34,589 bases of DNA from an uncultured Ignavibacteria bacterium. GTDB taxonomy: Bacteria > Zixibacteria > MSB-5A5 > SM1-73. Within the stretch, counting starts at the first letter, position 1. The number at the start of each line of letters is the position of its first letter. The notes below the pieces were generated by a model. That model ran no database searches, was not told the origin of the DNA, and saw nothing but the letters and a program-made list of their open reading frames with translations. Below are positions 3,991 through 30,718 of this stretch, one piece after another. Where the stretch lies: assembly GCA_964345305.1 (NCBI GenBank), contig CAYFQZ010000544.1, positions 1 through 34,589 of the forward strand, read 5' to 3'. The translations under genes and the position numbers were made by a program.

Positions 3991-4083
3991 AACAGCTCCC
4001 TGGCGATAAGCCAAAAGAAGAAATCAGGTTTGTTTTGACTTTCACTCAATGATACGCACCCGCTTAACCTTTCCCCTGCCTAC

Positions 4084-6217: not shown

Positions 6218-6292
6218 GGATCTCCGCAGGTCGCATCATGGGAAGAAAGTCGATCTTGCGCGCTTCCGTGTCCTTCCGCAATTGTGGTTGAG

Positions 6293-13542: not shown

Positions 13543-13625
13543 CTTCTTCTCCAAAAACCATAACGTGGATTTGAACCTATCCAATCCTGCGCTATGCACT
13601 TTGGCCATCCTTATCACGCGTTTCT

Positions 13626-18167: not shown

Positions 18168-18425
18168 TCTTCTCAATTCGGCCTCTCCTTTACATTTAAG
18201 CTTCAGCCCATCGCATCCCCACAAAGTCTGCTTGCTTCCAAACGTGGCCGTATCCGCGGGATTTTCCAAATGCGCCGATCCATCCGGCATCTCTCATGGA
18301 CCGGAATAGACCCGGGCCGGCTCCCGCACCTTGCCGTTTTTTCCTCGCCGTTCTCACGCCAACGCCGACAGGCAGGGCGCGGCACCCCGGTATGGTAGTC
18401 CGCCAACCGAAAGAAAAGACGACAA

Positions 18426-18512: not shown

Positions 18513-19346
18513 TTACCATCTTCGGGAGAGATAAAGCATGACCGTGGGATTATGGCCCAGAGGGTTGGCTTGGAGGTCAAACTTTACCTGAGAAAGTTCG
18601 AGGCTTTTCTTTCTGTTGTAGCTGCGCACGGTCTTCAGCGCATCCACCACCGAGACTATGCGATTCACCACGGAAAGCCCCACCATATATAGAGCCCTTC
18701 TTGACATGTCTTTACTTCTGTTCTTCATGTCCCTGTAATGCAACCGGGACTCCCGGCTGTCCCATTGCCAGTTCCAGAAGTCATCCTGGGGATAGGGCTG
18801 CTTTTCACCCCGGTTGTACAGCGGGGCAAACTGGTTATACTGATCTCGGTTTTCGTAGAATGCCAGTTCATCGAAGAACTGGTCAGATTTTCCGTCCGGG
18901 TTCACCCGGGCGTGGTCAGCGGCATAGCTTTTATAATCCTCCTTGAGCCAACCGCTGTACGTCCGGAACCCGAAGAAACCGGCCCACAACGACGCCTCGG
19001 AAAGCATGAATATCTTACCCTTGGTCTCTGCGCCGCCGTAAATCTCCCCCGCACCGGGAAGAATGAGCGAAAGCAGGGCGGCCGTGCTGGCCGATTTCAG
19101 CCCTTCCTTCTCCTCCTCAAACTCACCCGGCATCTGAAAGAAATCATCCTGCTGGTTTGCTCCCGAACCTCCAGCCAAAAAGCGCGGATCGTCCAGGGCA
19201 AAGCTGATCCCTGCTGCCTCAGGATACAACCTCTTCTCCGGCGACGTATCGCATCTCACCAGCGTCTCGGTCGCGGCGTAGCTCCGGCCGGAGGCCGATA
19301 CGCCCATGATAAGCAGAAGCGAAAAGAGGAAGATTGTCTTTTTCAT
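18513..19346 (-). CDS. Hypothetical secreted/membrane protein, paralog B (PG-x-G-x-x-Y helical-hairpin family, DUF5683-like)
   Basis: ATG 19346 (TTG 19352 in the track) gives the signal peptide MKKTIFLFSLLLIMGVSASG. Motifs shared with 19388-20272 are LSLILPGAGEIYGG, ASLWAGFF and NRIVSVVDALKTVRSYNRKK. The protein ends in an aromatic residue (..LYLSRRW). Confidence 0.75.
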   Translation of the reverse strand: MKKTIFLFSLLLIMGVSASGRSYAATETLVRCDTSPEKRLYPEAAGISFALDDPRFLAGGSGANQQDDFFQMPGEFEEEKEGLKSASTAALLSLILPGAGEIYGGAETKGKIFMLSEASLWAGFFGFRTYSGWLKEDYKSYAADHARVNPDGKSDQFFDELAFYENRDQYNQFAPLYNRGEKQPYPQDDFWNWQWDSRESRLHYRDMKNRSKDMSRRALYMVGLSVVNRIVSVVDALKTVRSYNRKKSLELSQVKFDLQANPLGHNPTVMLYLSRRW

Positions 19347-19387
19347 CGGCAAAGTCTTGATCGGGTCCCGGACTTGCGAGAGGCCAT

Positions 19388-20272
19388 CTAAAAATCAAGG
19401 CTCATAGAGACGCGCGGAATCACCTCTCGGTCCCTTTCCACAAGTCTCATCTTGAAATTCAGCTGGCTGAACCTTTCCCCTTTCTTGTTGTATTTCCGAA
19501 CCGAGATGGCGGCATCGAAGGCGGAGAGTATGTGGTTGGCCAGCGAGAACATGGCCGAATACGTGGCCTTGTTCAACAGATCGTTGGAGTCGCGACGCAT
19601 ATTCAGATAAACTTCTCTGTTTGGGCTTGACCCATCATCGGGTGCCGGCTCGTAGTCGTCCCAGCCTTCGGAGAACTGCTCATATTTGCCGATCATCTCG
19701 TAGTAATCGTCCGTCTTTGAATCCGGCAGGTGGTGAGAGAAACACTTCTCTTCGTGGGTGACCGGATCAGTATAGCACTCCCTGTCCGAGTCTATGCCAT
19801 AAGTATCCCGCAGCCACTGTATGTATTCGTCCCTGGACCAGTGCCGGTCAGCGAACACCTGGTATTCGTCTTCTTTGTCCTTCCCCTTGCCGTGATAGTT
19901 GAAATAAAGGGCCCACAGCGCGGCGTCCAGCCCCAGAAAGACCACTGTCTTTATCTTGGAACCGGCATATAGCTGTCCGCTCCCCGGGATCAGCAGAGAG
20001 TAGACGAAGGCCCGCTTCAGGGACTTGCCCTTGAACCCGTATATGTCCACGGCCTCCTCCTCCCCCAGCGGACCGGTCTCCTGGGCCAGTAAGGGGGATT
20101 GAGTGAGCTTGAGCATCTTCAGTGATCGCTCAAAATCGACCTGGGCAAGATCGCTGCGAAACGAGAAAGGCTCGTCTCTGTTCTCGACGAACGTTGTCCC
20201 CCTGCCTGAGGAATACACGACAAGCATAAAGGCGAGAAAGCATACCGTAGCCCGAACGTATCTGCTGCTCAT
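19388..20272 (-). CDS. Hypothetical secreted/membrane protein, paralog A (PG-x-G-x-x-Y helical-hairpin family, DUF5683-like)
   Basis: The ATG is preceded by AAGGAGG with a 5-nt spacer. The signal-like N-terminus is MSSRYVRATVCFLAFMLVVYSSG. Motifs are YSLLIPGSGQLYAGS, AALWALYF and NHILSAFDAAISVRKYNKK. It ends ...RVSMSLDF, which resembles a beta-signal. Confidence 0.8.
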   Translation of the reverse strand: MSSRYVRATVCFLAFMLVVYSSGRGTTFVENRDEPFSFRSDLAQVDFERSLKMLKLTQSPLLAQETGPLGEEEAVDIYGFKGKSLKRAFVYSLLIPGSGQLYAGSKIKTVVFLGLDAALWALYFNYHGKGKDKEDEYQVFADRHWSRDEYIQWLRDTYGIDSDRECYTDPVTHEEKCFSHHLPDSKTDDYYEMIGKYEQFSEGWDDYEPAPDDGSSPNREVYLNMRRDSNDLLNKATYSAMFSLANHILSAFDAAISVRKYNKKGERFSQLNFKMRLVERDREVIPRVSMSLDF

Positions 20273-20337: not shown

Positions 20338-23300
20338 CTATTTGACGATGGCCATCTTGAAGAACACCACCTGGCTTTGGCTCGTCGATTTTGCCTCCAC
20401 CCGGCAAAGGTAAACTCCGCTCGCAAACCCGGAGCAGTCCCAAATTCGCTCGTTATGCGTGCGCCCCTGTCCCGGCCCCGGGAATTGATCAACCAACATT
20501 CCTGAGAGATCATAGACTCTTATCCCGACCGCTGCGTCCTCTTTCAAGAAGTACCTGATAATCGTTTCATCCCCGGCCGGATTGGGATAGTTGAAGGCGG
20601 TCTTCTGTGGCAGCAAATCACCGGCCAGAGCGGGGAGTTCGGGCAGCTTCTCTTTGGGGAAGTAATTGGTGTGCCCGGCATCGAAGCCATACATGGGCCA
20701 AGGCATGCTCTCCTCCGTGTCCTGGGCGGGTAAGTCCCAGGCGTAGATGAAGCCATCATCACACGCGACCAGGAGTTCCACGTCGCTGTCTCTGTCAAGG
20801 TTGATCAGAAGCGGCGATGATCTAACCGGTCCGCCGACCGGAAGAGGGAAACCGCCTACCATCCTACCATCTCTGCTGTAACCCACGATTCGCCCGTCTT
20901 TAGTGCCGACGATTATGTCGGGATACCCGTCTCCGTCAGCGTCTCCCAGAATCGGCGAAGAGTCGATCAGATCTGTGCCGCCGCCCGGGAGGCTCAGCAT
21001 GACCGGGAAGTTACCCACCGGCGCACCATTAAAATTGTAAGCAAAGATCTTGTTGCCCGAGGCCAAGATTATCTCCAGATAGCCATCTTTATCCAGGTCT
21101 CCCAGAACCGGGGCGGACGCAATACCTTCGCCAGCTGATACGGGGAATCCTTCCAGCAAACCCAGTTCTGTGTCATAGGCGTATATCTCTCCTCCTGCCA
21201 TGCAGCAGAAGACCACGTCGCTGCTGCCGTCCCTGTCCAGGTCCCCTACCACCAGGTGGCGTCCTATGTCTCCACACGCGTCGGTACACTCCACAAAGTC
21301 CTGAGAGTAGATGTTCCACTTACATAGTTGAGCCTCATGTCCCTGGTGACTTGTTACCACGAAATTGACAGTGCAGTCTCCGGTGGTTGCCAGCCCGTAA
21401 ACGGACTTCTGGAAAGGGGAGGAATACAGAACTTCGCCTGCAGAGGAGATAACGACAACGCCGACGTCCAGAATTCTGTCAGTCGCCACAAATATCTCCA
21501 GGCCTGATTTCGAGGAGTCGAAATTGGCGATCACCGGCATCGTCGTAATGCCGGTTGGCGCCGGGTCACCCAGCTGAAGGGGGAAGCCATCTACGGGGTC
21601 CGCTCTTCCGTTCTGGTCTCGATCATAAGGATGCCAGACGCAGACTTTGCCCTTCGCAGTTGCCGCCACCACCTCCAAGGTGTCGTCTCCGTCCAAGTCA
21701 CCCAAGGATGGGGGTCCGACAAAGTCCTCGTTCTCTTCGGCGAATATGGCCAGCGGCAGTGTGGTCAGGGTGGAATCGTATAGCATTATCTCCACCGAAT
21801 CCGGATACGGGAACAAGCTGGCACCTGAAGCATCCCACCCGTGTATGAACCGACCGGAGGAAGCGAATATCCTTAGGTCATTCTCCGCAGAGACCAGAGA
21901 GCTTACCCCCGCCTCGGGAATGAACTTTTGAGGGAAACCGGCCTGAACCCAGGCTGTGGAAACATCCAGCGTCATTACCGTATCCGATCGGCCGACATCG
22001 GCGACCTGGATGTGGGTGTCCGACCCGCCTCTGCTTCTTGACGAAGGAAACGTGTAAGGACCAAAATCGGCATTATTGCCCCGGCGAAACATGTCCTCGG
22101 CCCGGCCAAACCCGGTGTAATAGTTGCCTCCGAAATCTATGATGCCGTCCGCCTCCTCCAGTTCCAGAAAGCGCCGATCCTTATCCACCTGGAGGTGATT
22201 GTCCCAGAAGTTGTTCAGTCCGTCAAGATCGTAGTCATAATAGGCCACATCTTCGTCCAGATGCCAGATGAGAGTTCCCGAGCCTGGCAGAAGCCAGTCA
22301 TATTCCCGGTTGTAATCCAGCTCGGCATCCACCGGACCCAGGATGACGTTGGTGGCGCTGTCCGCCCGCAGTGCGCTAAATCCGTCGCCGTCCAAGTCCT
22401 GCTGGCGATTCTCCACCAGAAAATACTCGCTCGGACTGATGGGAATCCGGATCAGTCGAAGCTGGTCGGTCAGCATCTCGGATGCTCGCAGCTCTATCTC
22501 CGTCTGATTCTTGATCTCCACCGGTTCTACGAATCCGAGGAAGGCCTTGCTCCACGCGCAGGGGTAAACCGGCAGCACGCCGTTGACGAAAACGTCATAG
22601 CCCACATCCACCCCTACGTTTTGGGCATTGTTATCCATCAAAGCGAAATCGCCCACCTGGGTCATGAAGTTTACCGAATTATACAGATCGGGCAGACCCA
22701 ATTGATGACCAAACTCGTGAGCGAACTCCGCATTCAAGGCACCGACTCGATTGTCTTGTGATCTGGTTTCCGGCATAAAAATACCGTCCGTTATTGGAAA
22801 CGTGTCGCCGTCCACCCACACCGTATCACTAAGCCTGATGTAACCGGTGAAAAGATCTCCCGGGGTGGGATTGACCAGTTCTCCCAGATCGCTCTGCAGG
22901 TCCGAGCCGGCGTGAAAGATCACAAAGCAATCATACTGTGAGAAGTCGATTCCGTAAATCTGCGGATCTTCGTACACCGAGAAGGAATCCGCCAGATTGA
23001 AGCTGTCGTGGAAGAACTGTCTGAGCATCTCCACCTTGTAGGAGAGAGACGAATCCGGGGCGCCGTAGTGAGCCATGGCATCTGGCAGCCGATAAGCCAG
23101 GCTCTCGTGTTTGGGAAAGACCTGGCCTTCCAGCGCCAGCCCTCCGCTTGATACCGTCGACCAGTAATTGTGCAGGGCCTGAATATGCTTGGTGAAGAAA
23201 AGCGTATCGTGAGGCGAGGGGTCTATCAGGTGGCCTTCCTCCTGCAAGAACTCCTCCTGAGCTCTCATGTCGAAAAGTCCGTTGCCCGTGGTTCGGGGAT

Positions 23301-23616
23301 CGTCCGGAATCTCTTCCTCAAACTCCACCCTGATGGCCAAAATCCTGAGCGTCCTCATTTGCGGAAAGGCAACCTTGGATAGGCGCGGAGGGGAAAACGG
23401 AGCCTCTCTTTCCAGTGCCAGCAGGTTCCGCTGAGACACGTCGCTTATGAAGCCGAGATTCTGAACCGGTCTGGTTGATTTTTCCTCGAAGGGCGGGCTA
23501 TCCTTGTCCCGAATCCGAAGCACCCGTTCGGAGCTTGGATGCGCCAGTCCTGCAAAACAGAAAAAGGCGACCGTGGTCGCGCCGATCAATTGGAACAGAA
23601 CTTTGGCTCTTTGCAT
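20338..23616 (-). CDS. M6 (immune inhibitor A-like) zinc metalloprotease fused to FG-GAP/VCBS repeats and a T9SS-type C-terminal sorting domain
   Basis: The signal peptide is MQRAKVLFQLIGATTVAFFCFAGLA. The M6 signature is AHEFGHQLGLPDLY. Five FG-GAP-like repeats are visible (GDLDGDDTLEVV, GDLDRDGSSDVV, GDLDKDGYLEII, GDADGDGYPDII, NLDRDSDVELLV). The C-terminal domain starts at FNYPNPAGDETIIRYFL. Confidence 0.9.
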   Translation of the reverse strand: MQRAKVLFQLIGATTVAFFCFAGLAHPSSERVLRIRDKDSPPFEEKSTRPVQNLGFISDVSQRNLLALEREAPFSPPRLSKVAFPQMRTLRILAIRVEFEEEIPDDPRTTGNGLFDMRAQEEFLQEEGHLIDPSPHDTLFFTKHIQALHNYWSTVSSGGLALEGQVFPKHESLAYRLPDAMAHYGAPDSSLSYKVEMLRQFFHDSFNLADSFSVYEDPQIYGIDFSQYDCFVIFHAGSDLQSDLGELVNPTPGDLFTGYIRLSDTVWVDGDTFPITDGIFMPETRSQDNRVGALNAEFAHEFGHQLGLPDLYNSVNFMTQVGDFALMDNNAQNVGVDVGYDVFVNGVLPVYPCAWSKAFLGFVEPVEIKNQTEIELRASEMLTDQLRLIRIPISPSEYFLVENRQQDLDGDGFSALRADSATNVILGPVDAELDYNREYDWLLPGSGTLIWHLDEDVAYYDYDLDGLNNFWDNHLQVDKDRRFLELEEADGIIDFGGNYYTGFGRAEDMFRRGNNADFGPYTFPSSRSRGGSDTHIQVADVGRSDTVMTLDVSTAWVQAGFPQKFIPEAGVSSLVSAENDLRIFASSGRFIHGWDASGASLFPYPDSVEIMLYDSTLTTLPLAIFAEENEDFVGPPSLGDLDGDDTLEVVAATAKGKVCVWHPYDRDQNGRADPVDGFPLQLGDPAPTGITTMPVIANFDSSKSGLEIFVATDRILDVGVVVISSAGEVLYSSPFQKSVYGLATTGDCTVNFVVTSHQGHEAQLCKWNIYSQDFVECTDACGDIGRHLVVGDLDRDGSSDVVFCCMAGGEIYAYDTELGLLEGFPVSAGEGIASAPVLGDLDKDGYLEIILASGNKIFAYNFNGAPVGNFPVMLSLPGGGTDLIDSSPILGDADGDGYPDIIVGTKDGRIVGYSRDGRMVGGFPLPVGGPVRSSPLLINLDRDSDVELLVACDDGFIYAWDLPAQDTEESMPWPMYGFDAGHTNYFPKEKLPELPALAGDLLPQKTAFNYPNPAGDETIIRYFLKEDAAVGIRVYDLSGMLVDQFPGPGQGRTHNERIWDCSGFASGVYLCRVEAKSTSQSQVVFFKMAIVK
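20341..20601 (-). other. T9SS type-A / FlgD-Ig-like C-terminal domain of the M6 protease
   Basis: TAFNYPNPAGDETIIRYFLKEDAAVGIRVYDLSGMLVDQF...SGVYLCRVEAKSTSQSQVVFFKMAIVK. This fits the NYPNP...[IV]Y[DN]..G+LV...GVY.[YC][RK] pattern of Por secretion tails. Confidence 0.75.
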
Positions 23617-23688: not shown

Positions 23689-26262
23689 TTAGAATCTCCC
23701 GGTCATGGAGAACCGCATGGTATTGGACAGGGCCGATGTCTTGCTTGAAGGGATGTAGGCGAAATCGAATCTGAAGAGGCCGTACTGCAATCCCGCGCCG
23801 AACGTCGGGTTTTTCACGTCGCCAACCTTGTCGTACACGTATCCGGCGCGCAGGGAGACGTAGGTTCCATACCAGTATTCCGCACCCATATTCAGGATGG
23901 CCTCCTCAAGCTCCTGGCTGACGGGATCGTCCAGACCAACACGTTCCTTGTTTACCTCGAGTGTCCCGGTCAGACGATTAAACGGACTGTCCACGATCCG
24001 ATAGGCCAAGCCCACTGCCAAGTTACGTGGCAGAGGATCGGACTGGTTCAGATCGATGTAGGCGATGTTGCGACCCAGGTTGGTCAAGGCCGCTCCCAGA
24101 GTCAGCTTCCTTATCGGGGTCTTGTACAAAAGTCCCGCGTCCAGGGCGAAGGACGATCCTGACCCCTTGCCCTTCTCCAACCCCGCTCCCTGGTCGGCCA
24201 AATGGCTGTAGATTACTTTGGCAGAGAGGCCGGTGGACAGGCTGGGACTGAGCCGGCTACCGTAGGAGAAGGTGAATGCCATCTCGTAACTGTCGAAGGT
24301 TCCCAGTACGTTGTTGAATTCGTCTGTGCGGACGTTTTCGCCCAGGGAGAGGAAAGTCAGATTCGCGCCCACCGTTCCCCATCCCTCCATGTGGACGACG
24401 CCCGAAAGGTAGTCATAATACAGATCGCTGGCCAGTTCGGGCAGCCAGTTGGCGTGCATGAAGGTAATCTCCCTCTTGGCGTGGGCATATATAACCACCT
24501 TCTCTGCGGTGGCAAACCACGACTCTCCATCTTGATGGACGATCTTCTTGGTGCTCTGCCGCTCCAAACCAGCGTGGTAATACCTGCTCCAGCTTTCCCC
24601 GTCCCATCTTATGGTCCCGTACTGTGTTCCCACGAACAGCTTATTCGACCCGGCCTCGGTCAGCGAGAGAATCATGCTCCCCAAGGCATTGTAGTAAACA
24701 TATATCTTGGCTCCAGGTTCCAGCTTCCCGGTGGGATCCAGCCGGTTGTAATCTATGATCATCTGGGAGAGCTTCGAGATCCTCTCCTGATCATCCGATC
24801 TCAAGAACTGCCGCGCCACCGAGTTGACGTCGTCTCCTTCCTTGGCGTCATAGAGCCGGTAACCGTAGGTAAACCATCTGTCTCCGTCGTACCTTTTCAG
24901 GCCGCGGTCGGTTCCGACCCATAGATTTGCCCGACCGTCCAGGCTGAGCGCGGTGACCTTCCCGCTCAGCGCCAGCTCGTAAGGAAGGTTGATGACCTGC
25001 CCCGCTCCCAGAGCGGAATCGCCGAGCGAGTTGTATGCCTTGACCGCGGCTACCGACTGGGCGACGATGTTTTCGTTTTCGCTGCCCAAGAATCTTTGGA
25101 CCACCTTCTCCAGTTCGTCTCCAATTCTGAATGAGTACTGCTCATGCGGCTGCCACGATTCACCGTCGAGTTTGAAAAGCCTGGTCTCGGTGGCGGCCCA
25201 GAACTCCCTTTCCCCGACGTTTGCGAAATCCACCACAGCCACATCCTCCACATCTCCCGCGAAAGGCACGTTGGTCCACTTGGTCCCGTCGAATTTCACC
25301 GCACCCTGATCGGTCCCCACCCACGCGTAACGCCTGGAGACGGCCAGAATCGCAGTTATGCGATTTGACGGGAGACCATCTTCGCTCGAGAATCTGCGCC
25401 ACCTCTTTCCATCGAAGGAATGAAGACCACTCTCGCTTCCTATCCAGAGCATCTTTCCGTCCGAGGACATAGACGTAAGTTTTCCGTCGAACAGTATCCG
25501 GTAGGGAATCTTCACCGACCCGGGCAATCTTCCGGTGACAACTTGGCGAAGTAGAGAAGAGATTTCTTCGGTCTCTTTGGATGAAAGGGCATCATCGCTC
25601 AAGAAGTCGTTCACCCTGGAAACAAGATTTGAGAGATTCTCTGACGACAGAAGCAACTCATCCCAGGAGGTCAGCACATCTTCCCACAGCGACGAAAGAT
25701 CTTCTCCCGCCTGTTGGCTCCGCTCCAGAACCTTCTTTTTCAATGCCGACAGCGAGTCCTTGCCGACCGAATGATTGAATTCGGCGGTAAGCTCCTTCAT
25801 CCGCGCTATCTTCGCCTGGTCCTGCACCTGCGAAAACTTGGCCAGTATGCTCTCCAGCGTCTCGCCGGTCGAGGGAGAGTATCTCTCGTAGTTGAGCCAT
25901 TTACCCCGGTGCAGCCTGAACAGATCCGACTCACTGATCGCCCAGACATCGTACCGTTTGTAGTTCAACTCCGGTATGTCGTTTCTCAACAGAGCCATCG
26001 ATTCAAGCTCAAACTCAGCCGGCAGCGGATACTCCAACCAGGTGGAAGTCAGGGGATAGACCCCCAGACCTGCCGGATTCCAGTGGGTGGCCGTGGCATC
26101 ATCCGAGATGGCCACAAAAGCCTCGCCCATTCCGGCAGCCCTGGCCCCGGCCGCTATCCGCAGGAACAAAACGGCGGATCGGCTTACGTCGGCACGACAA
26201 TCCGAGCCAGCAAACCCGATCATCCAACCCATTAAGAGACAGGCAAGTATTACCTTCCTCAT
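23689..26262 (-). CDS. porV: PorV(LptO)-like outer-membrane barrel with a large inserted LysM-like/propeller region
   Basis: I prefer ATG 26262, preceded by AAGGAGG with an 8-nt spacer, which gives the signal peptide MRKVILACLLMGWMIGFAGSDCRA. An alternative is ATG 26319, preceded by GAGGA. The PorV hallmark is FLRIAAGARAAGMGEAFVAISDDATATHWNPAGLG. C-terminal barrel strands include PLPRNLAVGLAY and end MRFSMTGRF. The gene lies directly downstream of the PorU-like gene. Confidence 0.8.
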   Translation of the reverse strand: MRKVILACLLMGWMIGFAGSDCRADVSRSAVLFLRIAAGARAAGMGEAFVAISDDATATHWNPAGLGVYPLTSTWLEYPLPAEFELESMALLRNDIPELNYKRYDVWAISESDLFRLHRGKWLNYERYSPSTGETLESILAKFSQVQDQAKIARMKELTAEFNHSVGKDSLSALKKKVLERSQQAGEDLSSLWEDVLTSWDELLLSSENLSNLVSRVNDFLSDDALSSKETEEISSLLRQVVTGRLPGSVKIPYRILFDGKLTSMSSDGKMLWIGSESGLHSFDGKRWRRFSSEDGLPSNRITAILAVSRRYAWVGTDQGAVKFDGTKWTNVPFAGDVEDVAVVDFANVGEREFWAATETRLFKLDGESWQPHEQYSFRIGDELEKVVQRFLGSENENIVAQSVAAVKAYNSLGDSALGAGQVINLPYELALSGKVTALSLDGRANLWVGTDRGLKRYDGDRWFTYGYRLYDAKEGDDVNSVARQFLRSDDQERISKLSQMIIDYNRLDPTGKLEPGAKIYVYYNALGSMILSLTEAGSNKLFVGTQYGTIRWDGESWSRYYHAGLERQSTKKIVHQDGESWFATAEKVVIYAHAKREITFMHANWLPELASDLYYDYLSGVVHMEGWGTVGANLTFLSLGENVRTDEFNNVLGTFDSYEMAFTFSYGSRLSPSLSTGLSAKVIYSHLADQGAGLEKGKGSGSSFALDAGLLYKTPIRKLTLGAALTNLGRNIAYIDLNQSDPLPRNLAVGLAYRIVDSPFNRLTGTLEVNKERVGLDDPVSQELEEAILNMGAEYWYGTYVSLRAGYVYDKVGDVKNPTFGAGLQYGLFRFDFAYIPSSKTSALSNTMRFSMTGRF
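24469..26049 (-). other. ~530-aa insertion inside the PorV-like barrel: three LysM-like segments alternating with Reg_prop-type propeller blades
   Basis: LysM-like segments are YSPSTGETLESILAKF...LPGSVKIPY, YSFRIGDELEKVVQRF...YNSLGDSALGAGQVINLPY and YDAKEGDDVNSVARQF...YNRLDPTGKLEPGAKIYVYY. Propeller blades include LWIGSESGLHSFDGKRW, AWVGTDQGAVKFDGTKW, LWVGTDRGLKRYDGDRW and LFVGTQYGTIRWDGESW. The boundaries are approximate. Confidence 0.6.
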
Positions 26263-26367
26263 ATCGAAAACCTCCTTGCGATCCCAGCTATTACCGTCAT
26301 GCGCTTCAGCTGATTTCATGGACTTTCCTCTGGTTCCCAGGTTCTGTGTCTTTACTGCTCGACTTGA

Positions 26368-26461: not shown

Positions 26462-29400
26462 TCACCGCACTACCAGCGCCTTTCCGAATGCCTCCTTTGT
26501 TTTCCTCTCTCCATTTACCGTGCCTTCCGCAGTGATCTTGTATATGTAAATGCCGTTGGCCACCTTGTCTCCGTCGTCGTCTTCTCCGTTCCACGTGGTC
26601 GAGAAGTTGTATCCGCTGCGCGCTGAGGCAAAGGGTATGTGCCGGATCAGCCTTCCTGCCTGGGTAAATATCTTTATCTTCACCCTATCCACGTCGGGCG
26701 ATAGGTTATAGCAGAAACTGGTCGTCTCCGAGAAGGGGTCGAAGGGGTTGGGGTAGTTCATGACCTGGGAAAGTTCAAGCTCCCGGCGCTGGCTCACCCT
26801 AACCCTTACTTCTTTCACGGACGAGTTATTGGCGTTGTCCCAGGCCTTTATGGTGAGCGCGTGATCACCTTCCGACAGGTTTGGCAGAGGATGTTCAAGC
26901 GAGCCCTGCTGGTAGCTTCCCATATCGTACTCAAAACTCTGGGTGAGATCGAGCTGATTCTGGAAGTCCTGGTCGATCGTCAGGGTGATGCCGTGTCCCA
27001 CCTCGCCGGTGATGTTGATTCCGTGCTCATCAAACAGGGCGAGCCCGAGGAGGGAGTTGGGGAGTATCGTCTCTCCGTCAACAAAGATCTGCCTGTCGTC
27101 GAAGCTTAACGTTATCTGCGGCCCGACCGTATCTATCACCGTGGTATCGGAGCCTCTGATCACCAGGGAATCGCGAACCCCGGCCCCGTCTTGGTTCTGA
27201 CCCTGCAGGTAGACGCTGATCCTGCCCGTATTTCCCCCATAACTTATGTCCTTGGGCACCACGAAGCTGGCCTGGAATCTTCCTCCCTCCACATCCGCGT
27301 CGCCTTTGAACATGACCAGGCCAGGCAGATCATAGTCCACCTTCGCCCCGTTGGGCATGGTATGGCTCCTTTCTCTTTCGGAGTCAAAGGCCAATATCCT
27401 GACCGTTCCGTCCAGGCCGGTCATCAATTCACCCGTGCCGTCCCTGATCTCGCCGTCGACGCTCACCAGGCTCAGGGCGGAGATGGTATCCGGCTGTACC
27501 TGGGTCAACACCGCTTCAAGCCTGGGTGCTGCCAGCTTCATCACCGGGTCGCCGAAAAGAACGAACTGCCGGTCGTTGGAGTTGGGCTGCCTCAGGAGCT
27601 TGGCGATGAAAAGAGCCTCGCCGATGGACAGGGAGTCCTGATTCAGCAGAAGGTCGTAAACCTTGTAGTTCAGCGCGGCATTCGGGTCTGGAAAAACCAG
27701 CCAGGTAGCCGAGATGGTGGCGATGGAGCCTTTGTCCTGGCTTCTCAGGAACTGCTCCCCCATTCCCTCTCCAAACGGGTTGAAGAACAGACCGATACTG
27801 CACGAGGCCGTGTATATCAAAGGCAGCTTTCGCCCGTTACGGAGCCGCGGAATGTCCTGACTGCGCTTGAAAACCTTCTCGTGCGCCCACACGTCCGGGT
27901 TGCCATGCCCCATATAGTTGATGATCAGCGTACCGGAGTTGAAAGCGTTTATGATCGCATCCTCGGCCTCTGGCTTCTCCTCCTTAAGGTCAAAGGGATA
28001 CTCCATCAGATATATCTTGCTCAGATTAAAAACCGGCGGAACGTGAAGATCGGCCAACTCCTCTGTATCCCGCGTGTGAAATCCTTCGGAGTTTGAGGTG
28101 CTGGTGAATTCATCATCGGCCACCAGCGTGATCAGATTTCTCCAGGTTCCGAGTTGGGGATCGTCTTCATAGCCGATGACCTTATCCAACACCACCTGAA
28201 CCTCCTCCTGGCTCCTCACCGGCCATCGGGCGATTACCATGTCCAGTCCCCTATCCAGCGGCCCGTAAGCGGAATCCGAATCCAGGAAACCGTATCTGCC
28301 GAAGTAGACGTAATTGTCGTCCGAGACCGATCGGTCTCCTTCCCAGGTGGGAGTGAAGGGAGGCATGAAGTTATCCGTGCCGGTTCCCAGATTGTCCTTG
28401 TAATCGTAATGCCCGTCCCCCACCAGCAGCGTATATGCAGGCGCAGGTCTCCTCCAGTTCTGATGGGCGAACTTCAGGAAGTCCCTGATGGCCACCGGAT
28501 CAGGAAGACCTCCCGAGAACTCATCATACACGTCCTGAACCCCGATCACCCTCGTTGACATCTGGTTGAACGATTCCCGAAAGCTCTTCAGGCTGTGCAT
28601 CTGGTCACAGAAATCCGAATGAGTGATGATCAGAAAATCCGCCTGGTTTGAGACCCCCCTTAAGTCCGATTTCTCGTCGGCGAAAAACCGCACCGGCTTT
28701 TTGATCCTGCTTTCGTCCGCCAGAAGGTACCTGCTTGTCGCGTCTGTCTTGACCGTATCCTGGAAGGTGGCAACCTCACCATCTATCTGGGCGCCGATGA
28801 TTCTCTTGACGTCAAAATAATCGGTGAGCTCAAGCAGAAGTATATCAGGCGAGTGGAGGTTGGAGATCTCATATTGGGCCACACCCTCGGCATCAGGGCT
28901 TTCGAACCAGAGCCGCCGGTCGTGAAGCTCGAATCTTCGAGGGTATTCTATCTCGTACCAGTCCAGATAAGCGCCGCCGGGAAAGGCAATGTCCAGAGTA
29001 TCGACCATTCCCCCGTGAAACTCAAAACTCCGGGCCACGGTCATGGAGGCCGACGACAGCGTATCCAGGATCTCGGCCGGCTCAGCGTTCACCCACAGGC
29101 TGGGATGGGCGTCCGTATGCTTGACTCTGATCAAACACGCCTCCTGGGGCACCGCACCCGGCAAGCTAACAAAGAACCGGGCAGAAGGAGTCTCCATCCA
29201 GTACCAGTTAAAGTAGTCCGCCACATAGCCTGTCGGATAAACTCTCAGGCTGTTGTCCTGCTCGGCATGGGTTCTGGACCTAAACTGAGAGACCGGGTTC
29301 TGTGCCACCGGAGTTCCGTCCTTGGTGCCCATCCGCTTGGGAATGTCCGGAAAAGGCGAGGTGGGTTTGGGGCTGAATGTCAGCCAGAAAACGTTTTCGT

Positions 29401-30466
29401 CGGTGAAGGGATTGGTGTGAAATCCGGTGACCTTTCCCCCGGAATCGTAGTCCCAGTCATTCGTCGACCAGCCATAAAAGAGAACATAGTCTTCCGGGTC
29501 AAACGTGCCGTCCTCTTCCCCCGACACCAGGATGGCGATCTCCTCCAGTTGCAGAAACGGATTGGAATTGTCCAGGGGCAAAACCCGGCCTCCGCCGGAG
29601 AACATCCTCATGGTTCGAGGATCCAGAGAGCTTACCGGAACGCCCGCCTGAACCAGCACGGATCGGTCGATTTTGTATATGGCATTCTCCCGCACCACCG
29701 CCTTGTACCAGTTGTCAGAATGCCCGAACGGGTAGGGAACAGCTAGCTTGGGCAGGGCCGGCTGATCTTTGGTTCTTCGCCACGCTCGGGATTCATCGTA
29801 ATTGAGCAACAGGTTTTGGTAAACCCTCTCGAACGACCCTGTGCTTTCCTCGATTCTTCCCGCGCCACCACCCAGAAAGCTGACGGCTATTGTGATACGT
29901 GTGTAGTATCTGACGGTTTTTCGGACAGGATTGTACTGGACCGGGTGGATCTCCAACTGGACTATCCTCTGGCCTCTCATGAAGATTGGAGCATCAAACG
30001 AAACGATCTCAGGAGGATATAAGCGGTCCTGAGTCTTTCTTGTGGCCGAAGGCACGGCACGGTAGCCCACCTGAGCATTTTCATCGTGGCTTATCCTGGC
30101 TCCATATGCCAAATCTATATTCGATAGTTCTCCCCCTTCTTTATCCAAAATGTCCACCCAGACGTCTCCTTCCACTGGAACTCCGATGATCACCCTTCTC
30201 ACCGGCGCCAGGGGTTCTCCGGGCAGGTTTGCCAATCCACATTTGCTGATGTTTATTACGTCGAAGAATCGACCCCCCATTTCAATCTTTCCGCTCTCGA
30301 TTTCGGGCACCAGATAGCGGAAGGTCACGCCATCCTGATCCGAGCTGAGTATCTCCATATCATCGTATTCGGAGGCGGCGGCTGCCCCGTTCCAGAGGCA
30401 GCATGATAGCACTCCCAAGATCGTCAGGACGGACAGAAAGACTCGTGTAGAACTCACTGTCTCCAT
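26462..30466 (-). CDS. porU: PorU-like C25 cysteine peptidase (candidate T9SS C-terminal signal peptidase/sortase) with its own CTD
   Basis: I prefer ATG 30466, which gives the signal peptide METVSSTRVFLSVLTILGVLSCCLWNGAAAAS. The track ORF starts at 30592. The N-domain is propeptide-like. C25 dyad contexts are INYMGHGNPDVWA and LIYTASCSIGLF. The C-terminal domain is FlgD-Ig/T9SS-type. The gene lies immediately upstream of the PorV-like gene, the arrangement conserved for porU-porV in Bacteroidota. Confidence 0.8.
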   Translation of the reverse strand: METVSSTRVFLSVLTILGVLSCCLWNGAAAASEYDDMEILSSDQDGVTFRYLVPEIESGKIEMGGRFFDVINISKCGLANLPGEPLAPVRRVIIGVPVEGDVWVDILDKEGGELSNIDLAYGARISHDENAQVGYRAVPSATRKTQDRLYPPEIVSFDAPIFMRGQRIVQLEIHPVQYNPVRKTVRYYTRITIAVSFLGGGAGRIEESTGSFERVYQNLLLNYDESRAWRRTKDQPALPKLAVPYPFGHSDNWYKAVVRENAIYKIDRSVLVQAGVPVSSLDPRTMRMFSGGGRVLPLDNSNPFLQLEEIAILVSGEEDGTFDPEDYVLFYGWSTNDWDYDSGGKVTGFHTNPFTDENVFWLTFSPKPTSPFPDIPKRMGTKDGTPVAQNPVSQFRSRTHAEQDNSLRVYPTGYVADYFNWYWMETPSARFFVSLPGAVPQEACLIRVKHTDAHPSLWVNAEPAEILDTLSSASMTVARSFEFHGGMVDTLDIAFPGGAYLDWYEIEYPRRFELHDRRLWFESPDAEGVAQYEISNLHSPDILLLELTDYFDVKRIIGAQIDGEVATFQDTVKTDATSRYLLADESRIKKPVRFFADEKSDLRGVSNQADFLIITHSDFCDQMHSLKSFRESFNQMSTRVIGVQDVYDEFSGGLPDPVAIRDFLKFAHQNWRRPAPAYTLLVGDGHYDYKDNLGTGTDNFMPPFTPTWEGDRSVSDDNYVYFGRYGFLDSDSAYGPLDRGLDMVIARWPVRSQEEVQVVLDKVIGYEDDPQLGTWRNLITLVADDEFTSTSNSEGFHTRDTEELADLHVPPVFNLSKIYLMEYPFDLKEEKPEAEDAIINAFNSGTLIINYMGHGNPDVWAHEKVFKRSQDIPRLRNGRKLPLIYTASCSIGLFFNPFGEGMGEQFLRSQDKGSIATISATWLVFPDPNAALNYKVYDLLLNQDSLSIGEALFIAKLLRQPNSNDRQFVLFGDPVMKLAAPRLEAVLTQVQPDTISALSLVSVDGEIRDGTGELMTGLDGTVRILAFDSERERSHTMPNGAKVDYDLPGLVMFKGDADVEGGRFQASFVVPKDISYGGNTGRISVYLQGQNQDGAGVRDSLVIRGSDTTVIDTVGPQITLSFDDRQIFVDGETILPNSLLGLALFDEHGINITGEVGHGITLTIDQDFQNQLDLTQSFEYDMGSYQQGSLEHPLPNLSEGDHALTIKAWDNANNSSVKEVRVRVSQRRELELSQVMNYPNPFDPFSETTSFCYNLSPDVDRVKIKIFTQAGRLIRHIPFASARSGYNFSTTWNGEDDDGDKVANGIYIYKITAEGTVNGERKTKEAFGKALVVR
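26465..26761 (-). other. T9SS / FlgD-Ig-like C-terminal domain of the PorU-like peptidase
   Basis: MNYPNPFDPFSETTSFCYNLSPDVDRVKIKIFTQAGRLIRHI...WNGEDDDGDKVANGIYIYKITAEG...KALVVR. Confidence 0.75.
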
Positions 30467-30718
30467 AGACAGAAAAGCCGAGTAAACCCTCAAAACGCAG
30501 AAGCTCTTCCCTCTAAGATTTTCGGGAAGCACTACTCGGCTGGATGGCCTACAATCGCTCCAGCCAAAAGGGTTCGGGACTGACTTCCTCATAGAATCGA
30601 CAAGGACCTTCCGCTATTTACCTGCCGCAGAGACTCAGGCACAAACATCGCGGATTCGAATAACAAACCCTTTAGCTGTTGCTCCTATAGGCTTACCTCT
30701 CTTTGATTTATTTTCCCT

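What the first reader, a model, noticed from the sequence alone, without database searches (positions are those of the whole stretch)
24469..26049. PorV-like outer-membrane barrel split by a ~530-residue LysM-like / beta-propeller insertion
After the signal peptide, the protein opens with the PorV(LptO)-family hallmark FLRIAAGARAAGMGEAFVAISDDATATHWNPAGLG. The last ~260 residues look like the remaining amphipathic barrel strands and end in MRFSMTGRF. Characterised PorV proteins are about 400 aa; this one is ~857 aa.

The extra sequence sits right after the first strand. It consists of three LysM-like segments (Y..x.G[DE].[LV]....F ... YN.L....L..G..I.[LV]P) alternating with W[IV]G[ST]..GL...DG..W blades of the 'two-component regulator propeller' type.

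PorV normally shuttles CTD cargo between the T9SS translocon and the PorU sortase. To my knowledge, a version carrying a possible peptidoglycan- or glycan-binding propeller has not been characterised. Such a module could tether or gate cargo attachment.
Basis: partly seen in the sequence, partly recalled or inferred. Interest (0 to 1): 0.75.

Follow-up and report, generated by a model that had tools for sequence, protein, structure and literature searches.

The report
PorV barrel with periplasmic propeller–LysM module
A Zixibacteria version of the type IX secretion carrier protein PorV has a conserved ~530-residue module, a seven-bladed propeller with three LysM-type modules, placed where it should hang below the outer membrane and probably tie the sorting station to the cell wall.

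Summary
Window 23689-26262 (- strand) encodes an 857-aa protein. It has a signal peptide, the conserved PorV N-terminal motif (res 25-68), a ~530-aa insert (res 69-597) and a C-terminal PorV barrel (res 598-857).

- The N-terminal motif is not strand 1. It aligns in register with the FadL-type hatch/plug segment and its NPA motif.
- All 14 predicted barrel strands lie C-terminal to the insert. By outer-membrane barrel topology the insert is therefore periplasmic, not on the cargo-binding surface.

The insert is modelled with pLDDT >90 as a Reg_prop-type seven-bladed propeller. Three mutually homologous LysM-fold modules sit in blade-to-blade connections, and one carries a four-helix insertion.

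The architecture is not an assembly artefact. It recurs in over 100 protein clusters and 36 genome loci, nearly all labelled Zixibacteria or carrying placeholder labels. It always sits in the cassette PorU sortase – this gene – M6-type protease with a T9SS sorting domain.

Most likely function (inferred): a cell-wall-tethered PorV, a single-chain analogue of the PorP–PorE bridge of Porphyromonas. The main rival is a periplasmic docking handle for the T9SS energy chain.

I found no paper describing it. It is a new variant of a known kind, of moderate interest.

The parts
23689..26262 (-). Complete CDS of the insert-bearing PorV homolog (857 aa plus stop). An alternative upstream ATG at 26319 would give 876 aa.
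   Evidence: ORF list. AGGAGG lies 8 nt upstream of the ATG at 26262. Identical 857-aa database protein P0001. PorV family HMMs pass their cutoffs.
26191..26262 (-). Sec-type signal peptide (res 1-24, MRKVILACLLMGWMIGFAGSDCRA). The cleavage site is inferred.
   Evidence: Hydrophobic helix at residues 2-17 in the model. Aligns with the signal peptide of F. johnsoniae PorV. No signal-peptide predictor was available.
26059..26190 (-). Conserved PorV N-terminal motif (res 25-68, ...FLRIAAGARAAGMGEAFVAISDDATATHWNPAGLG). It is a FadL-type hatch/plug segment with an NPA motif, not a barrel strand.
   Evidence: Aligns to FjPorV residues 28-64 (E = 2.7e-5). Aligns in register with the E. coli FadL hatch GLGRAY..AIADDA.....NPA (weak statistics). 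Nearly invariant across 57 homologs. AF2 gives short helices at pLDDT <50.
24472..26058 (-). The ~530-aa insert (res 69-597): a seven-bladed Reg_prop-type beta-propeller with three LysM-fold modules. Inferred to be periplasmic.
   Evidence: pLDDT >90 throughout, with 28 blade strands. Profile hit to HTCS sensor propellers at 9e-39. Foldseek hits 3va6/4a2l/3ott. Colinear matches to the whole insert occur only in proteins with the same architecture.
25879..26043 (-). Putative closure ('velcro') strand (res 74-79) and blade 1 (res 88-128), including the highly conserved LALLRNDxPExNYKRYDxWAIS stretch.
   Evidence: Strand order in the model. Invariant N94, P97 and W107. Assignment of 74-79 to blade 7 is inferred from strand counts.
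25489..25890 (-). LysM-like module 1 (res 125-258), degenerate, with a four-helix insertion (res ~165-245; window 25528-25770) in its alpha2-beta2 loop.
   Evidence: hhalign against module 2 gives 98.4% and against module 3 gives 96.8%. Helices H168-241 in the model. The helical insertion is absent in P0115 and L033. No Pfam hit on its own.
25147..25488 (-). Propeller blades 2-4 (res 259-372), with W[IV]G[ST]..GL..FDG..W repeats.
   Evidence: Reg_prop PF07494 at residues 296-318. Multi-stretch alignment to 4a2l. Strand pattern.
24970..25146 (-). LysM-like module 2 (res 373-431).
   Evidence: beta-alpha-alpha-beta in the model. hhalign against module 3 gives 99.2%, E = 2e-19. Absent in the distant L033 clade.
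24862..24969 (-). Propeller blade 5 (res 432-467).
   Evidence: Strand pattern. Aligned to 4a2l residues 496-525.
24679..24861 (-). LysM-like module 3 (res 468-528), the best-conserved LysM.
   Evidence: Pfam LysM hit at 474-522; 16.3 bits when scanned alone. Isolated AF2 model pLDDT 88.9. All top-50 Foldseek hits are LysM-containing proteins.
24472..24678 (-). Propeller blades 6-7 (res 529-597). The last strand runs directly into barrel strand 1.
   Evidence: Strand pattern.
23692..24471 (-). Complete 14-stranded FadL/PorV-type outer-membrane barrel (res 598-857), ending in the aromatic C-terminal signal ...MRFSMTGRF.
   Evidence: 14 strands in the AF2 model. Top Foldseek hit is PorV 8gl6_F (E = 5.4e-17, TM 0.60), followed by FadL/TodX. 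HMM alignment to FjPorV 67-395.
26462..30592 (-). Upstream gene: T9SS sortase PorU (C25 peptidase with propeptide and C-terminal sorting domain).
   Evidence: NF033707 at 761.5 bits (cutoff 420). Peptidase_C25 at 1.9e-82. Upstream of the PorV-insert gene in every locus that extends that far, directly in all but L032.
20338..23616 (-). Downstream gene: M6-like metalloprotease with FG-GAP repeats and a type A T9SS C-terminal sorting domain. It is the likely cargo or partner.
   Evidence: Por_Secre_tail and Peptidase_M6 hits. HEFGH motif visible in the translation. Directly downstream in all loci that extend that far.

Best explanation
**Shown**
- The gene encodes the PorV-type carrier/attachment barrel of a Zixibacteria type IX (type A CTD) sorting system. 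It lies on the same strand between the PorU sortase gene and a gene for a CTD-bearing M6-type protease, separated by short gaps.
- The protein is: signal peptide, then FadL-like hatch motif, then a ~530-aa insert, then a complete 14-strand PorV barrel.
- The insert is a rigid seven-bladed Reg_prop-type propeller. Three LysM-fold modules are spliced into the connections after blades 1, 4 and 5.

**Inferred from barrel topology**
- The insert links the lumen plug to strand 1, so it hangs from the periplasmic mouth of the barrel.

**Inferred from generic propeller topology**
- Both chain connections to the barrel leave one face of the propeller.
- The three LysM modules sit in d-to-a connections on the opposite face, pointing away from the membrane towards the cell wall.

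**Inferred function**
- The LysM array binds peptidoglycan glycan strands multivalently. This pins the PorV–PorU sorting station at a fixed distance below the outer membrane and at a fixed place in the envelope.
- The propeller acts as a spacer and possibly as a docking surface.
- This would be a single-chain equivalent of the PorP–PorE bridge of Porphyromonas/Flavobacterium. There, a FadL-type carrier barrel is bound to a periplasmic protein with a propeller and an OmpA_C-type peptidoglycan-binding domain.
- Cargo capture by the extracellular loops and hand-over to PorU would proceed as in canonical PorV.
For: **PorV identity**
- HMM hits.
- Foldseek top hit is PorV 8gl6_F.
- PorU is adjacent in the window and in the 33 of 36 loci whose contig extends upstream.
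- No second PorV-like barrel in the window or in the 36 loci.

**Anatomy**
- AF2 model: pLDDT 82, pTM 0.79, insert >90.
- Strand/helix map.

**Periplasmic placement**
- There are 14 strands after the insert, ending in a C-terminal aromatic residue.
- The turns S2-3, S4-5, S6-7, S8-9, S10-11 and S12-13 are 2-5 residues long. The alternate loops are up to 16 residues. This is the standard outer-membrane barrel pattern.
- The S6-S7 turn aligns with FjPorV 193-199. PMC10994853 calls that loop the PorV periplasmic loop that contacts SkpA.
- The N-motif aligns in register with the FadL hatch/NPA.

**LysM**
- 48 of 57 homologs hit PF01476, best 2e-14.
- The three modules are mutually homologous.
- All top-50 Foldseek hits of module 3 are LysM-containing proteins, including the periplasmic LysM of intimin and the MltD LysM domains.
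- Modules 2 and 3 keep the GD...YN.L....L.PGQ pattern.

**Precedent**
- PorE binds peptidoglycan and bridges it to the FadL-family barrel PorP (PMC7192894, PMC9143113).

**Conservation**
- Insert length is ~531-536 aa in most of the 57 homologs examined.
- Module 3 and the propeller are kept even in the most distant clade examined.
Against: - No binding was tested. The LysM fold is also used for non-peptidoglycan roles. The best Foldseek hits include phage/CIS baseplate LysM proteins and the K+-binding protein Kbp.
- In this protein only module 3 scores with the Pfam LysM model on its own, and below the cutoff (16.3 bits).
- Module 1 is degenerate and module 2 is dispensable in one clade.
- Model coordinates could not be inspected. 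The membrane side, the closure strand and the LysM orientation are therefore deduced from topology rules, not seen.
- The N-terminal motif is modelled at pLDDT <50.
- A wall-anchored PorV conflicts with the shuttle role proposed for PorV in Bacteroidota.
- The rest of a T9SS (SprA, GldKLMN) was not found in the window and could not be searched for in whole genomes.
Confidence: 0.5

Rival explanations
1. **Periplasmic handle or docking platform.** The propeller, with or without its LysM-like modules, is a protein-protein interaction surface. Periplasmic T9SS parts would grip the carrier through it. Candidates are the GldK/N-PorK/N hub, the GldM/PorM rotor tip, SprE/PorW and Skp. The grip would position the attachment complex or pull cargo-loaded PorV off the translocon. 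The LysM-like modules would be structural decorations.
For: [quoted passage not shown] It proposes that a periplasmic moving track attaches to carrier proteins.
- PMC12365241 places PorV-PorU above the PorKN ring.
- A periplasmic loop of FjPorV already contacts SkpA.
- Propellers are common interaction scaffolds.
- Non-LysM surfaces of the insert are the most conserved, e.g. LRNDxPExNYKRYD and YYHAGLER.
- LysM folds serve structural roles in baseplates.
Against: - No partner was identified.
- No GldK/L/M/N or SprE genes are in the window.
- Retention of LysM sequence motifs in 48 of 57 homologs argues for retained glycan binding.
- The two roles are not exclusive.
Confidence: 0.25
2. **Surface-exposed glycan-binding module.** The insert lies outside the cell and tethers or gates cargo attachment. 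It could act as a fused PorZ-like propeller that presents the anchoring glycolipid to PorU.
For: - PorZ is a propeller protein of the attachment complex that delivers A-LPS to PorU (PMC8545088, listed).
- Weak similarity to PorZ: NF052228 E = 0.017 and 5m11 E = 0.056.
- The gene is next to PorU.
Against: - The insert sits between the hatch and strand 1 of an even-stranded barrel whose C-terminus must be periplasmic. The short-turn/long-loop pattern agrees.
- The PorZ similarity is far weaker than that to generic Reg_prop sensor propellers (136 bits against 14.7 bits). It is explained by the shared repeat type.
- A 14-strand plugged barrel has no known way to export a 530-aa folded domain.
Confidence: 0.07
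3. **Periplasmic ligand sensor.** As in hybrid two-component systems, the Reg_prop propeller would bind a soluble periplasmic glycan such as muropeptides or oligosaccharides. It would allosterically regulate the hatch or barrel, and so carrier activity.
For: - The closest solved propellers are periplasmic glycan-sensing domains of Bacteroides HTCS.
- JGI names some homologs 'ligand-binding sensor domain-containing protein'.
- The insert is wired directly to the hatch segment.
Against: - HTCS sensors use two propellers plus a Y_Y_Y domain, and bind ligand at a dimer interface. Here there is a single propeller and no signalling output domain.
- There is no evidence that the PorV hatch moves.
Confidence: 0.08
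4. **Artefact.** The ORF is an assembly or annotation chimera of a PorV gene and an unrelated propeller gene.
For: None beyond the unusual length.
Against: - The same colinear architecture appears in 120 listed protein clusters from NCBI, JGI, ENA and Logan assemblies, down to 41% identity.
- It appears in 36 independent genome loci.
- Insert length is conserved.
- The PorV match is interrupted at exactly one point.
Confidence: 0.01

Closest known systems
PorV (LptO) of Flavobacterium johnsoniae / Porphyromonas gingivalis (PDB 6h3i_F, 8gl6_F)
   Same: - Signal peptide, conserved N-terminal motif and a 14-strand FadL-type barrel, aligned end to end.
- Gene next to porU.
- A type A CTD cargo gene lies alongside.
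   Different: - About 530 residues replace ~3 residues between the N-terminal motif and strand 1, doubling the size (857 against ~400 aa).
- It scores below the PorV equivalog cutoff (181.7 against 250 bits).
- The host is Zixibacteria, not Bacteroidota.
PorP–PorE complex of P. gingivalis (and PorP-like/PorE-like pairs of F. johnsoniae)
   Same: - A FadL-family 14-strand carrier barrel is coupled to a periplasmic beta-propeller plus a peptidoglycan-binding domain.
- It is proposed to bridge the outer-membrane barrel to the cell wall and to hold non-mobile cargo (PMC9143113, PMC7192894).
   Different: - There: two separate proteins; PorE is a lipoprotein with TPR, WD40-like propeller, CRD and OmpA_C domains; it serves type B cargo.
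- Here: one chain; the propeller is of Reg_prop type; the wall-binding candidate is LysM; the barrel is PorV-like (type A) and paired with PorU.
- No sequence homology to PorE was detected.
Periplasmic LysM of intimin/invasin inverse autotransporters (PDB 2mpw)
   Same: An outer-membrane barrel carries a periplasmic LysM domain N-terminal to the barrel. 2mpw is among the Foldseek hits of module 3. That this LysM anchors the protein to peptidoglycan rests on my own knowledge.
   Different: - Different barrel family.
- A single LysM with no propeller.
- The LysM is at the free N-terminus, not nested in a propeller between a plug and the barrel.
Periplasmic sensor domain of Bacteroides hybrid two-component systems (BT4663, BT4673, BT3049; PDB 4a2l, 3va6/3ott, 3v9f)
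   Same: Reg_prop-type seven-bladed propeller located in the periplasm. It is the best sequence and fold match for the insert.
   Different: - Those have two tandem propellers plus a Y_Y_Y domain and cytoplasmic kinase/regulator modules.
- They have no LysM insertions and no outer-membrane barrel.
PorZ (PDB 5m11)
   Same: A propeller protein of the PorU-PorV-PorQ-PorZ attachment complex.
   Different: - PorZ is surface-exposed, has two propellers and its own CTD, and is held by PorQ.
- Similarity to the insert is marginal (E = 0.017 and 0.056).

Membership tests
PorV/PorQ family (NF033709, Pfam PF19572) | Family HMM score above the curated cutoff | tested here: met
   NF033709 scores 245.8 bits against a cutoff of 90. 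PF19572 scores 72.7 bits against 27. Both match in two stretches flanking the insert.
PorV proper (equivalog NF033710) | Equivalog HMM score above cutoff | tested here: not met
   181.7 bits against a cutoff of 250. The match is split into 3 stretches by the insert. It still scores well above PorQ (78.3 bits).
PorV proper | 14-stranded FadL-type barrel | tested here: met
   The AF2 model has 14 strands at residues 598-856. The best PDB fold match is PorV 8gl6_F (E = 5.4e-17, TMt 0.60), followed by FadL/TodX/TbuX. Barrel pLDDT is only 60-82.
PorV proper | Conserved N-terminal (hatch-like) motif ending in NPA | tested here: met
   Aligns to FjPorV 28-64 at E = 2.7e-5 and profile 1-64 to PorV 1-63. 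In register with the FadL hatch NPA (weak statistics). That it plugs the lumen is inferred from knowledge of the FadL family.
PorV proper | Genomic pairing with the PorU sortase | tested here: met
   PorU (761.5 bits) lies 200 nt upstream on the same strand. The same order holds in all loci that extend upstream.
PorV proper | Binds type A CTD cargo at the SprA/Sov lateral gate and hands it to PorU | not testable with these tools
   Needs biochemistry. Only supporting context was found: the neighbouring M6 protease and PorU itself carry T9SS C-terminal domains.
PorV proper | Host genome encodes the T9SS core (SprA/Sov, GldK/L/M/N) | not tested
   None is in the 34.6-kb window.
LysM domain (PF01476) | HMM match | tested here: inconclusive
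   In this protein the whole-sequence score is 22.5 bits against a cutoff of 20.9, with no single stretch significant. Module 3 alone scores 16.3 bits, and modules 1 and 2 score nothing. At family level it is clear: 48 of 57 homologs hit, best 2e-14.
LysM domain (PF01476) | beta-alpha-alpha-beta fold | tested here: met
   All three modules show b-a-a-b in the model. The isolated module 3 model has pLDDT 88.9. All its top-50 Foldseek hits are LysM-containing proteins, with TMq 0.5-0.69 and rmsd mostly 2-4 A. Modules 1 and 2 are linked to module 3 by hhalign.
LysM domain (PF01476) | Binds GlcNAc-containing glycans (peptidoglycan, chitin) | not testable with these tools
   The GD and N.L....L.PGQ motifs are retained in modules 2 and 3. 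No binding assay or coordinate inspection was possible.
Reg_prop beta-propeller (PF07494) | Repeat HMM match and seven-bladed propeller | tested here: met
   PF07494 scores 26.9 bits against 20.4. All 57 homologs hit it. The profile hits 4a2l at 9e-39 in 5 stretches. 28 strands are arranged as 7 x 4 at pLDDT >90. Ring closure by strand 74-79 is inferred.
Hybrid two-component system sensor | Two propellers plus Y_Y_Y domain plus kinase/receiver/AraC modules | tested here: not met
   There is a single propeller and no Y_Y_Y, HisKA, HATPase or receiver hits.
PorZ | Equivalog HMM, two propellers, own CTD | tested here: not met
   NF052228 scores 13.5 bits against a cutoff of 260. 5m11 gives E = 0.056. 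There is no CTD.
PorE | Lipoprotein with TPR, propeller, CRD and OmpA_C domains | tested here: not met
   No TPR, CarboxypepD_reg or OmpA hits. It is a functional analogy only.

The most novel reading that the evidence does not exclude
The periplasmic propeller is the built-in handle by which the proton-motive-force-driven T9SS energy chain (motor arm or hub/track) grips the carrier protein and drags cargo-loaded PorV off the translocon. In Zixibacteria, a coupling that is transient and unseen in Bacteroidota would then be hard-wired into one polypeptide. That would give a direct structural entry to the open question of how energy reaches the outer-membrane carrier.
Probability: 0.12. Interest if true: 0.8.

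Novelty: new variant of a known kind. Interest (0 to 1): 0.52.

Why it matters
- PorV is pictured as a small, freely shuttling barrel whose business end is its extracellular loops. How anything in the periplasm positions it, or pulls it off the translocon, is an open question in type IX secretion (PMC10994853, PMC12365241).
- Across the Zixibacteria loci examined, the PorV next to PorU carries a large, rigid, well-predicted periplasmic domain.
- If that domain binds the cell wall, type A sorting stations can be static. The PorP–PorE 'barrel-to-wall bridge' principle then extends to PorV and to another phylum.
- If it binds T9SS machinery instead, it marks the contact surface people are looking for.
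- Either way it gives a soluble, expressible domain for testing.
- It also documents a T9SS-type sorting cassette (PorU – PorV – CTD protease) conserved outside Bacteroidota.
- A propeller with LysM modules spliced between blades is an unusual domain arrangement in its own right.

Tried and rejected
- **Assembly chimera.** Rejected. The architecture is conserved in 120 listed clusters and 36 loci.
- **N-terminal motif as barrel strand 1.** Rejected. The model gives short helices and 14 strands downstream, and the motif aligns in register with the FadL hatch/NPA.
- **PorZ fusion.** Rejected as homology. Scores are marginal and explained by the shared Reg_prop repeat.
- **Strong 'WD40' hits of the N-terminal motif (E to 8.5e-13).** These are artefacts of summing many sub-threshold matches of SDDATATHWN to the repeated SDDKTVKLWN of designed WD40 proteins. 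No single stretch is significant.
- **Sequence-only search of LysM module 3 against the PDB.** It gave only non-significant hits (best 4uz2, E = 0.17). The fold search was needed.
- **Four-helix insertion and LysM modules 1 and 2 scanned alone against Pfam.** Nothing informative.
- **Stand-alone or differently placed copies of the whole insert.** Among 1.84 billion representatives, colinear matches are confined to the same PorV architecture. The other hits cover only blades 2-3 of generic Reg_prop proteins.
- **Second, ordinary PorV-like barrel.** None in the window or in the 36 loci. Whole genomes could not be searched.
- **Literature.** No paper holds Zixibacteria together with 'type IX secretion' or 'T9SS'. 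PorV plus LysM co-mentions are incidental. A search across other FCB phyla gave nothing relevant.
- **Lauber et al. 2018 PorV structure paper.** Not available.

Full report
**1. What is there**

The finding's coordinates (24469-26049) fall inside one long ORF on the minus strand, 23689..26319.

The likely start is the ATG at 26262:
- An AGGAGG lies 8 nt upstream, and a signal-peptide-like sequence, MRKVILACLLMGWMIGFAG..., follows at once.
- This gives 857 aa, identical to database protein P0001.

The stated coordinates correspond to residues ~72-598, i.e. the extra sequence. G+C content across the gene is unremarkable for the window.

**2. The PorV halves are real**

- Pfam PorV (PF19572) scores 72.7 bits against a cutoff of 27, in two stretches.
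- NCBIfam PorV/PorQ family (NF033709) scores 245.8 bits against a cutoff of 90, in two stretches.
- The PorV equivalog scores 181.7 bits, below its cutoff of 250 but far above PorQ at 78 bits.
- A profile of 57 homologs (A1) searched against PDB sequences aligns positions 1-64 to F. johnsoniae PorV 1-63, and 594-859 to PorV 67-395. About 530 residues therefore sit at a single point where canonical PorV has about three.

**3. Structure**

AlphaFold2 on A1 gave mean pLDDT 82.1 and pTM 0.79:
- The insert (about residues 70-597) is mostly above 90.
- The barrel is at 60-82.
- The N-terminal motif (about residues 17-68) is below 50, with three short helices.
- Downstream of residue 598 there are exactly 14 long strands.

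Foldseek against the PDB gives, in order:
- PorV of the F. johnsoniae translocon (8gl6_F, E = 5.4e-17, TM 0.60 normalised to the target).
- The periplasmic sensor propellers of Bacteroides hybrid two-component systems (3va6, 3ott, 4a2l/m, 3v9f).
- FadL, TodX and TbuX.

**4.

The barrel is not split, and the N-terminal hallmark is not strand 1. I fetched E. coli fadL and aligned the family profile to it.
- AGMGEAF---VAISDDATATHWNPAGLG aligns in register with FadL [26 protein letters not shown].
- From established knowledge of FadL, that segment is the hatch domain with its NPA motif, which plugs the barrel lumen. The 'FadL delta NPA' mutant 2r4o is among the hits.
- The pairwise statistics are weak (E = 0.01-0.06), so this is a motif-level correspondence, not proof.
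- It agrees with the helical, non-strand prediction and with all 14 strands lying downstream.

**5. Which side of the membrane (inferred)**

- A 14-strand barrel ending in an aromatic C-terminal residue (...TGRF) has both barrel ends in the periplasm.
- In the model, the turns S2-3, S4-5, S6-7, S8-9, S10-11 and S12-13 are 2-5 residues long. The alternate loops reach 13-16 residues. This is the usual short-periplasmic-turn, long-external-loop pattern.
- The S6-S7 turn (res 715-719) aligns with FjPorV residues 193-199. PMC10994853 describes that stretch as the PorV periplasmic loop that contacts SkpA. This assumes precursor numbering, as in the PDB chain.
- Strand 1 therefore starts at the periplasm. 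The last propeller strand (588-593) runs straight into it.
- The insert should hang from the periplasmic mouth of the barrel, not sit on the cargo-binding surface.

**6. Anatomy of the insert**

The strand map gives seven four-stranded blades:

| Blade | Residues |
|---|---|
| 1 | 88-128 |
| 2 | 262-291 |
| 3 | 302-331 |
| 4 | 345-372 |
| 5 | 436-466 |
| 6 | 531-560 |
| 7 | 571-593 |

Blade 7 has three strands of its own. I infer that strand 74-79 is its fourth, closing the ring.

Three beta-alpha-alpha-beta modules sit after the outer strand of a blade:
- Module 1 (125-258) after blade 1. It contains a four-helix insertion at about residues 165-245.
- Module 2 (373-431) after blade 4.
- Module 3 (468-528) after blade 5.

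Evidence that these are LysM:
- They are homologous to each other: hhalign probability 99.2%, 98.4% and 96.8%.
- They share a LysM variant with a lengthened alpha1-alpha2 link: Y.v.eGD.le.va.kFLgseDe.ri......i..yN.L....l.pGq.i.lPY.
- Pfam LysM is marginal in this protein (22.5 bits against a cutoff of 20.9). Module 3 alone scores 16.3 bits and modules 1 and 2 score nothing.
- LysM hits 48 of the 57 homologs, best 2e-14.
- A separate model of module 3 (pLDDT 88.9) found only LysM-containing proteins in its top 50 PDB matches. These include T. thermophilus P60, MltD, Ecp6, CEBiP/CERK1, the intimin periplasmic LysM, Kbp and phage/CIS baseplate proteins. TMq is 0.5-0.69 at mostly 2-4 A.

- The two connections to the hatch and barrel leave the face that carries the a-b and c-d turns.
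- All three LysM modules sit in d-to-a connections on the opposite face, pointing away from the membrane.

**7. Distribution and context**

- The protein search returned 931 hits. The 120 listed keep the full architecture down to 41% identity. They come from NCBI, JGI, ENA and Logan assemblies, and where named they are 'PorV/PorQ family protein [Candidatus Zixiibacteriota]'.
- Insert length is 530-536 aa in most homologs. Variants of 445 and ~721 aa exist.
- Scanning one genome per species with an insert-only alignment (A2) gave 36 loci. Nearly all are Zixibacteria MAGs. Some carry the placeholder label 'uncultured Ignavibacteria', and one each is labelled Terriglobales, Gemmatimonadota and 'bacterium'.
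- Searching 1.84 billion representatives with the insert alone found colinear full-insert matches only in proteins of about 850-1050 aa, starting near residue 66. Those have the same architecture. Everything else matched only blades 2-3 of large generic Reg_prop proteins.
- Synteny is strikingly constant: aldolase – PorU – this gene – M6-like protease – two DUF5683 proteins – NHL propeller – a ~1180-aa protein.
- PorU here scores 761.5 bits on the T9SS sortase model.
- The downstream protease carries a Por_Secre_tail domain.
- No second PorV-like barrel occurs in the window or in the held loci.
- Module variability: the helical bundle is absent in P0115 and L033, and module 2 is absent in the L033 clade. 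Blade 1, module 1 and the bundle appear duplicated in the 1046-1048-aa variants (read by eye from the sequence printed). The propeller and module 3 are constant.

**8. What it most likely does**

Shown:
- A PorV-type barrel paired with PorU and a CTD cargo.
- A conserved, rigid propeller/LysM module attached at the hatch-to-strand-1 junction.

Inferred:
- The module is periplasmic.
- Its LysM array faces the wall and binds peptidoglycan, fixing the PorV–PorU station to the sacculus.

The closest functional precedent is the PorP–PorE complex:
- PorP-like proteins are FadL-family 14-strand carriers.
- PorE is a periplasmic protein with a propeller and an OmpA_C domain. Its C-terminal domain was crystallised with a peptidoglycan fragment.
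[quoted passage not shown] Non-mobile cargo is thought to be anchored through PorP–PorE-like pairs (PMC9143113, PMC7192894).
- The Zixibacteria protein would do this in one chain, for the type A carrier.

I put about 0.5 on this.

**9. Rivals**

[quoted passage not shown] It proposes that a periplasmic moving track or ring engages carrier proteins (PMC10994853; PMC12365241). A large periplasmic domain on PorV is where such an engagement would occur. LysM folds also have non-glycan roles. No partner genes are in the window, and the two roles could coexist.
- **Surface-exposed, PorZ-like module (about 0.07).** Disfavoured by topology and by the marginal PorZ scores.
- **Ligand sensor (about 0.08).** There is no output domain.
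- **Chimera (about 0.01).** Excluded.

**10. Novelty and score**

- I found no paper that links Zixibacteria with T9SS or describes a PorV with such an insert.
- Databases label it only as a PorV/PorQ family protein or a hypothetical protein.
- It is a new domain-architecture variant of a known family in a little-studied phylum, with a plausible precedent for its function.
- It would interest a T9SS specialist, because it puts a testable periplasmic domain on the carrier protein. It is not a new kind of system.
- Interest: 0.52.

**11. Limits**

- No coordinates could be inspected.
- No signal-peptide predictor was available.
- The barrel and the N-terminal motif are the less confident parts of the model.
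- Whole Zixibacteria genomes could not be scanned for the rest of the T9SS or for a second PorV.
- MAG taxonomic labels are as deposited.

Noticed in passing
window 20338-23616 (-): The M6-like metalloprotease has FG-GAP repeats and a T9SS type A sorting domain. Its best NCBIfam model is 'T9SS-dependent M6-like inactivated metalloprotease' (421 bits, below the cutoff of 600), yet the HExxH motif (HEFGH) is intact. It lies directly downstream of the PorV-insert gene in every locus that extends that far, so it may be a dedicated cargo or partner of this PorU-PorV pair.
   Followed up: partly
window 520-4014 (-): A second C25-family peptidase (Peptidase_C25 1.2e-69, with propeptide). It carries a MAM/choice-of-anchor-J region and a C-terminal type I dockerin, and no T9SS CTD was detected. 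It is a gingipain/PorU-like protease with a cellulosome-type anchor.
   Followed up: no
window 18513-20272 (-) and 17220-18290 (-): Two tandem DUF5683 paralogues and an NHL-repeat propeller are syntenic with PorU-PorV-M6 across Zixibacteria loci from 30-70% identity. This suggests a larger conserved cassette of unknown role.
   Followed up: partly
window 11959-17174 (-): A 1182-aa protein has no Pfam or PDB match, only a weak local hit to SprA (E = 3.5e-6). An Omp85/POTRA protein follows it and slightly overlaps it. This may be a TamB/TamA-like pair, or an unrecognised translocon component at the end of the conserved cassette.
   Followed up: partly
window 10970-11806 (-): A UbiA-family prenyltransferase. 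Its best matches include archaeal-type geranylgeranylglycerol-phosphate geranylgeranyltransferase models (226-248 bits, just below cutoffs). This hints at ether-lipid-type chemistry in this bacterium.
   Followed up: no
window 4388-9679 (+): A PAS/histidine kinase is followed by a 1131-aa Ser/Thr kinase with a TPR-rich tail, on the opposite strand from the secretion cassette.
   Followed up: no
window 26059-26190 (-), residues 25-68: The PorV N-terminal motif SDDATATHWN produces apparently strong hits (E to 8.5e-13) to designed WD40 repeat proteins. The cause is summation of many sub-threshold matches to SDDKTVKLWN. It is a search artefact to be aware of.
   Followed up: yes
homologs P0114/P0117/P0120 (1046-1048 aa), P0115/P0119 (770 aa), L033 7809-10073: The insert is modular in evolution. 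The four-helix bundle is missing in the 770-aa forms and in L033. LysM module 2 is missing in the L033 clade. Blade 1, module 1 and the bundle appear duplicated in the ~1047-aa forms.
   Followed up: partly
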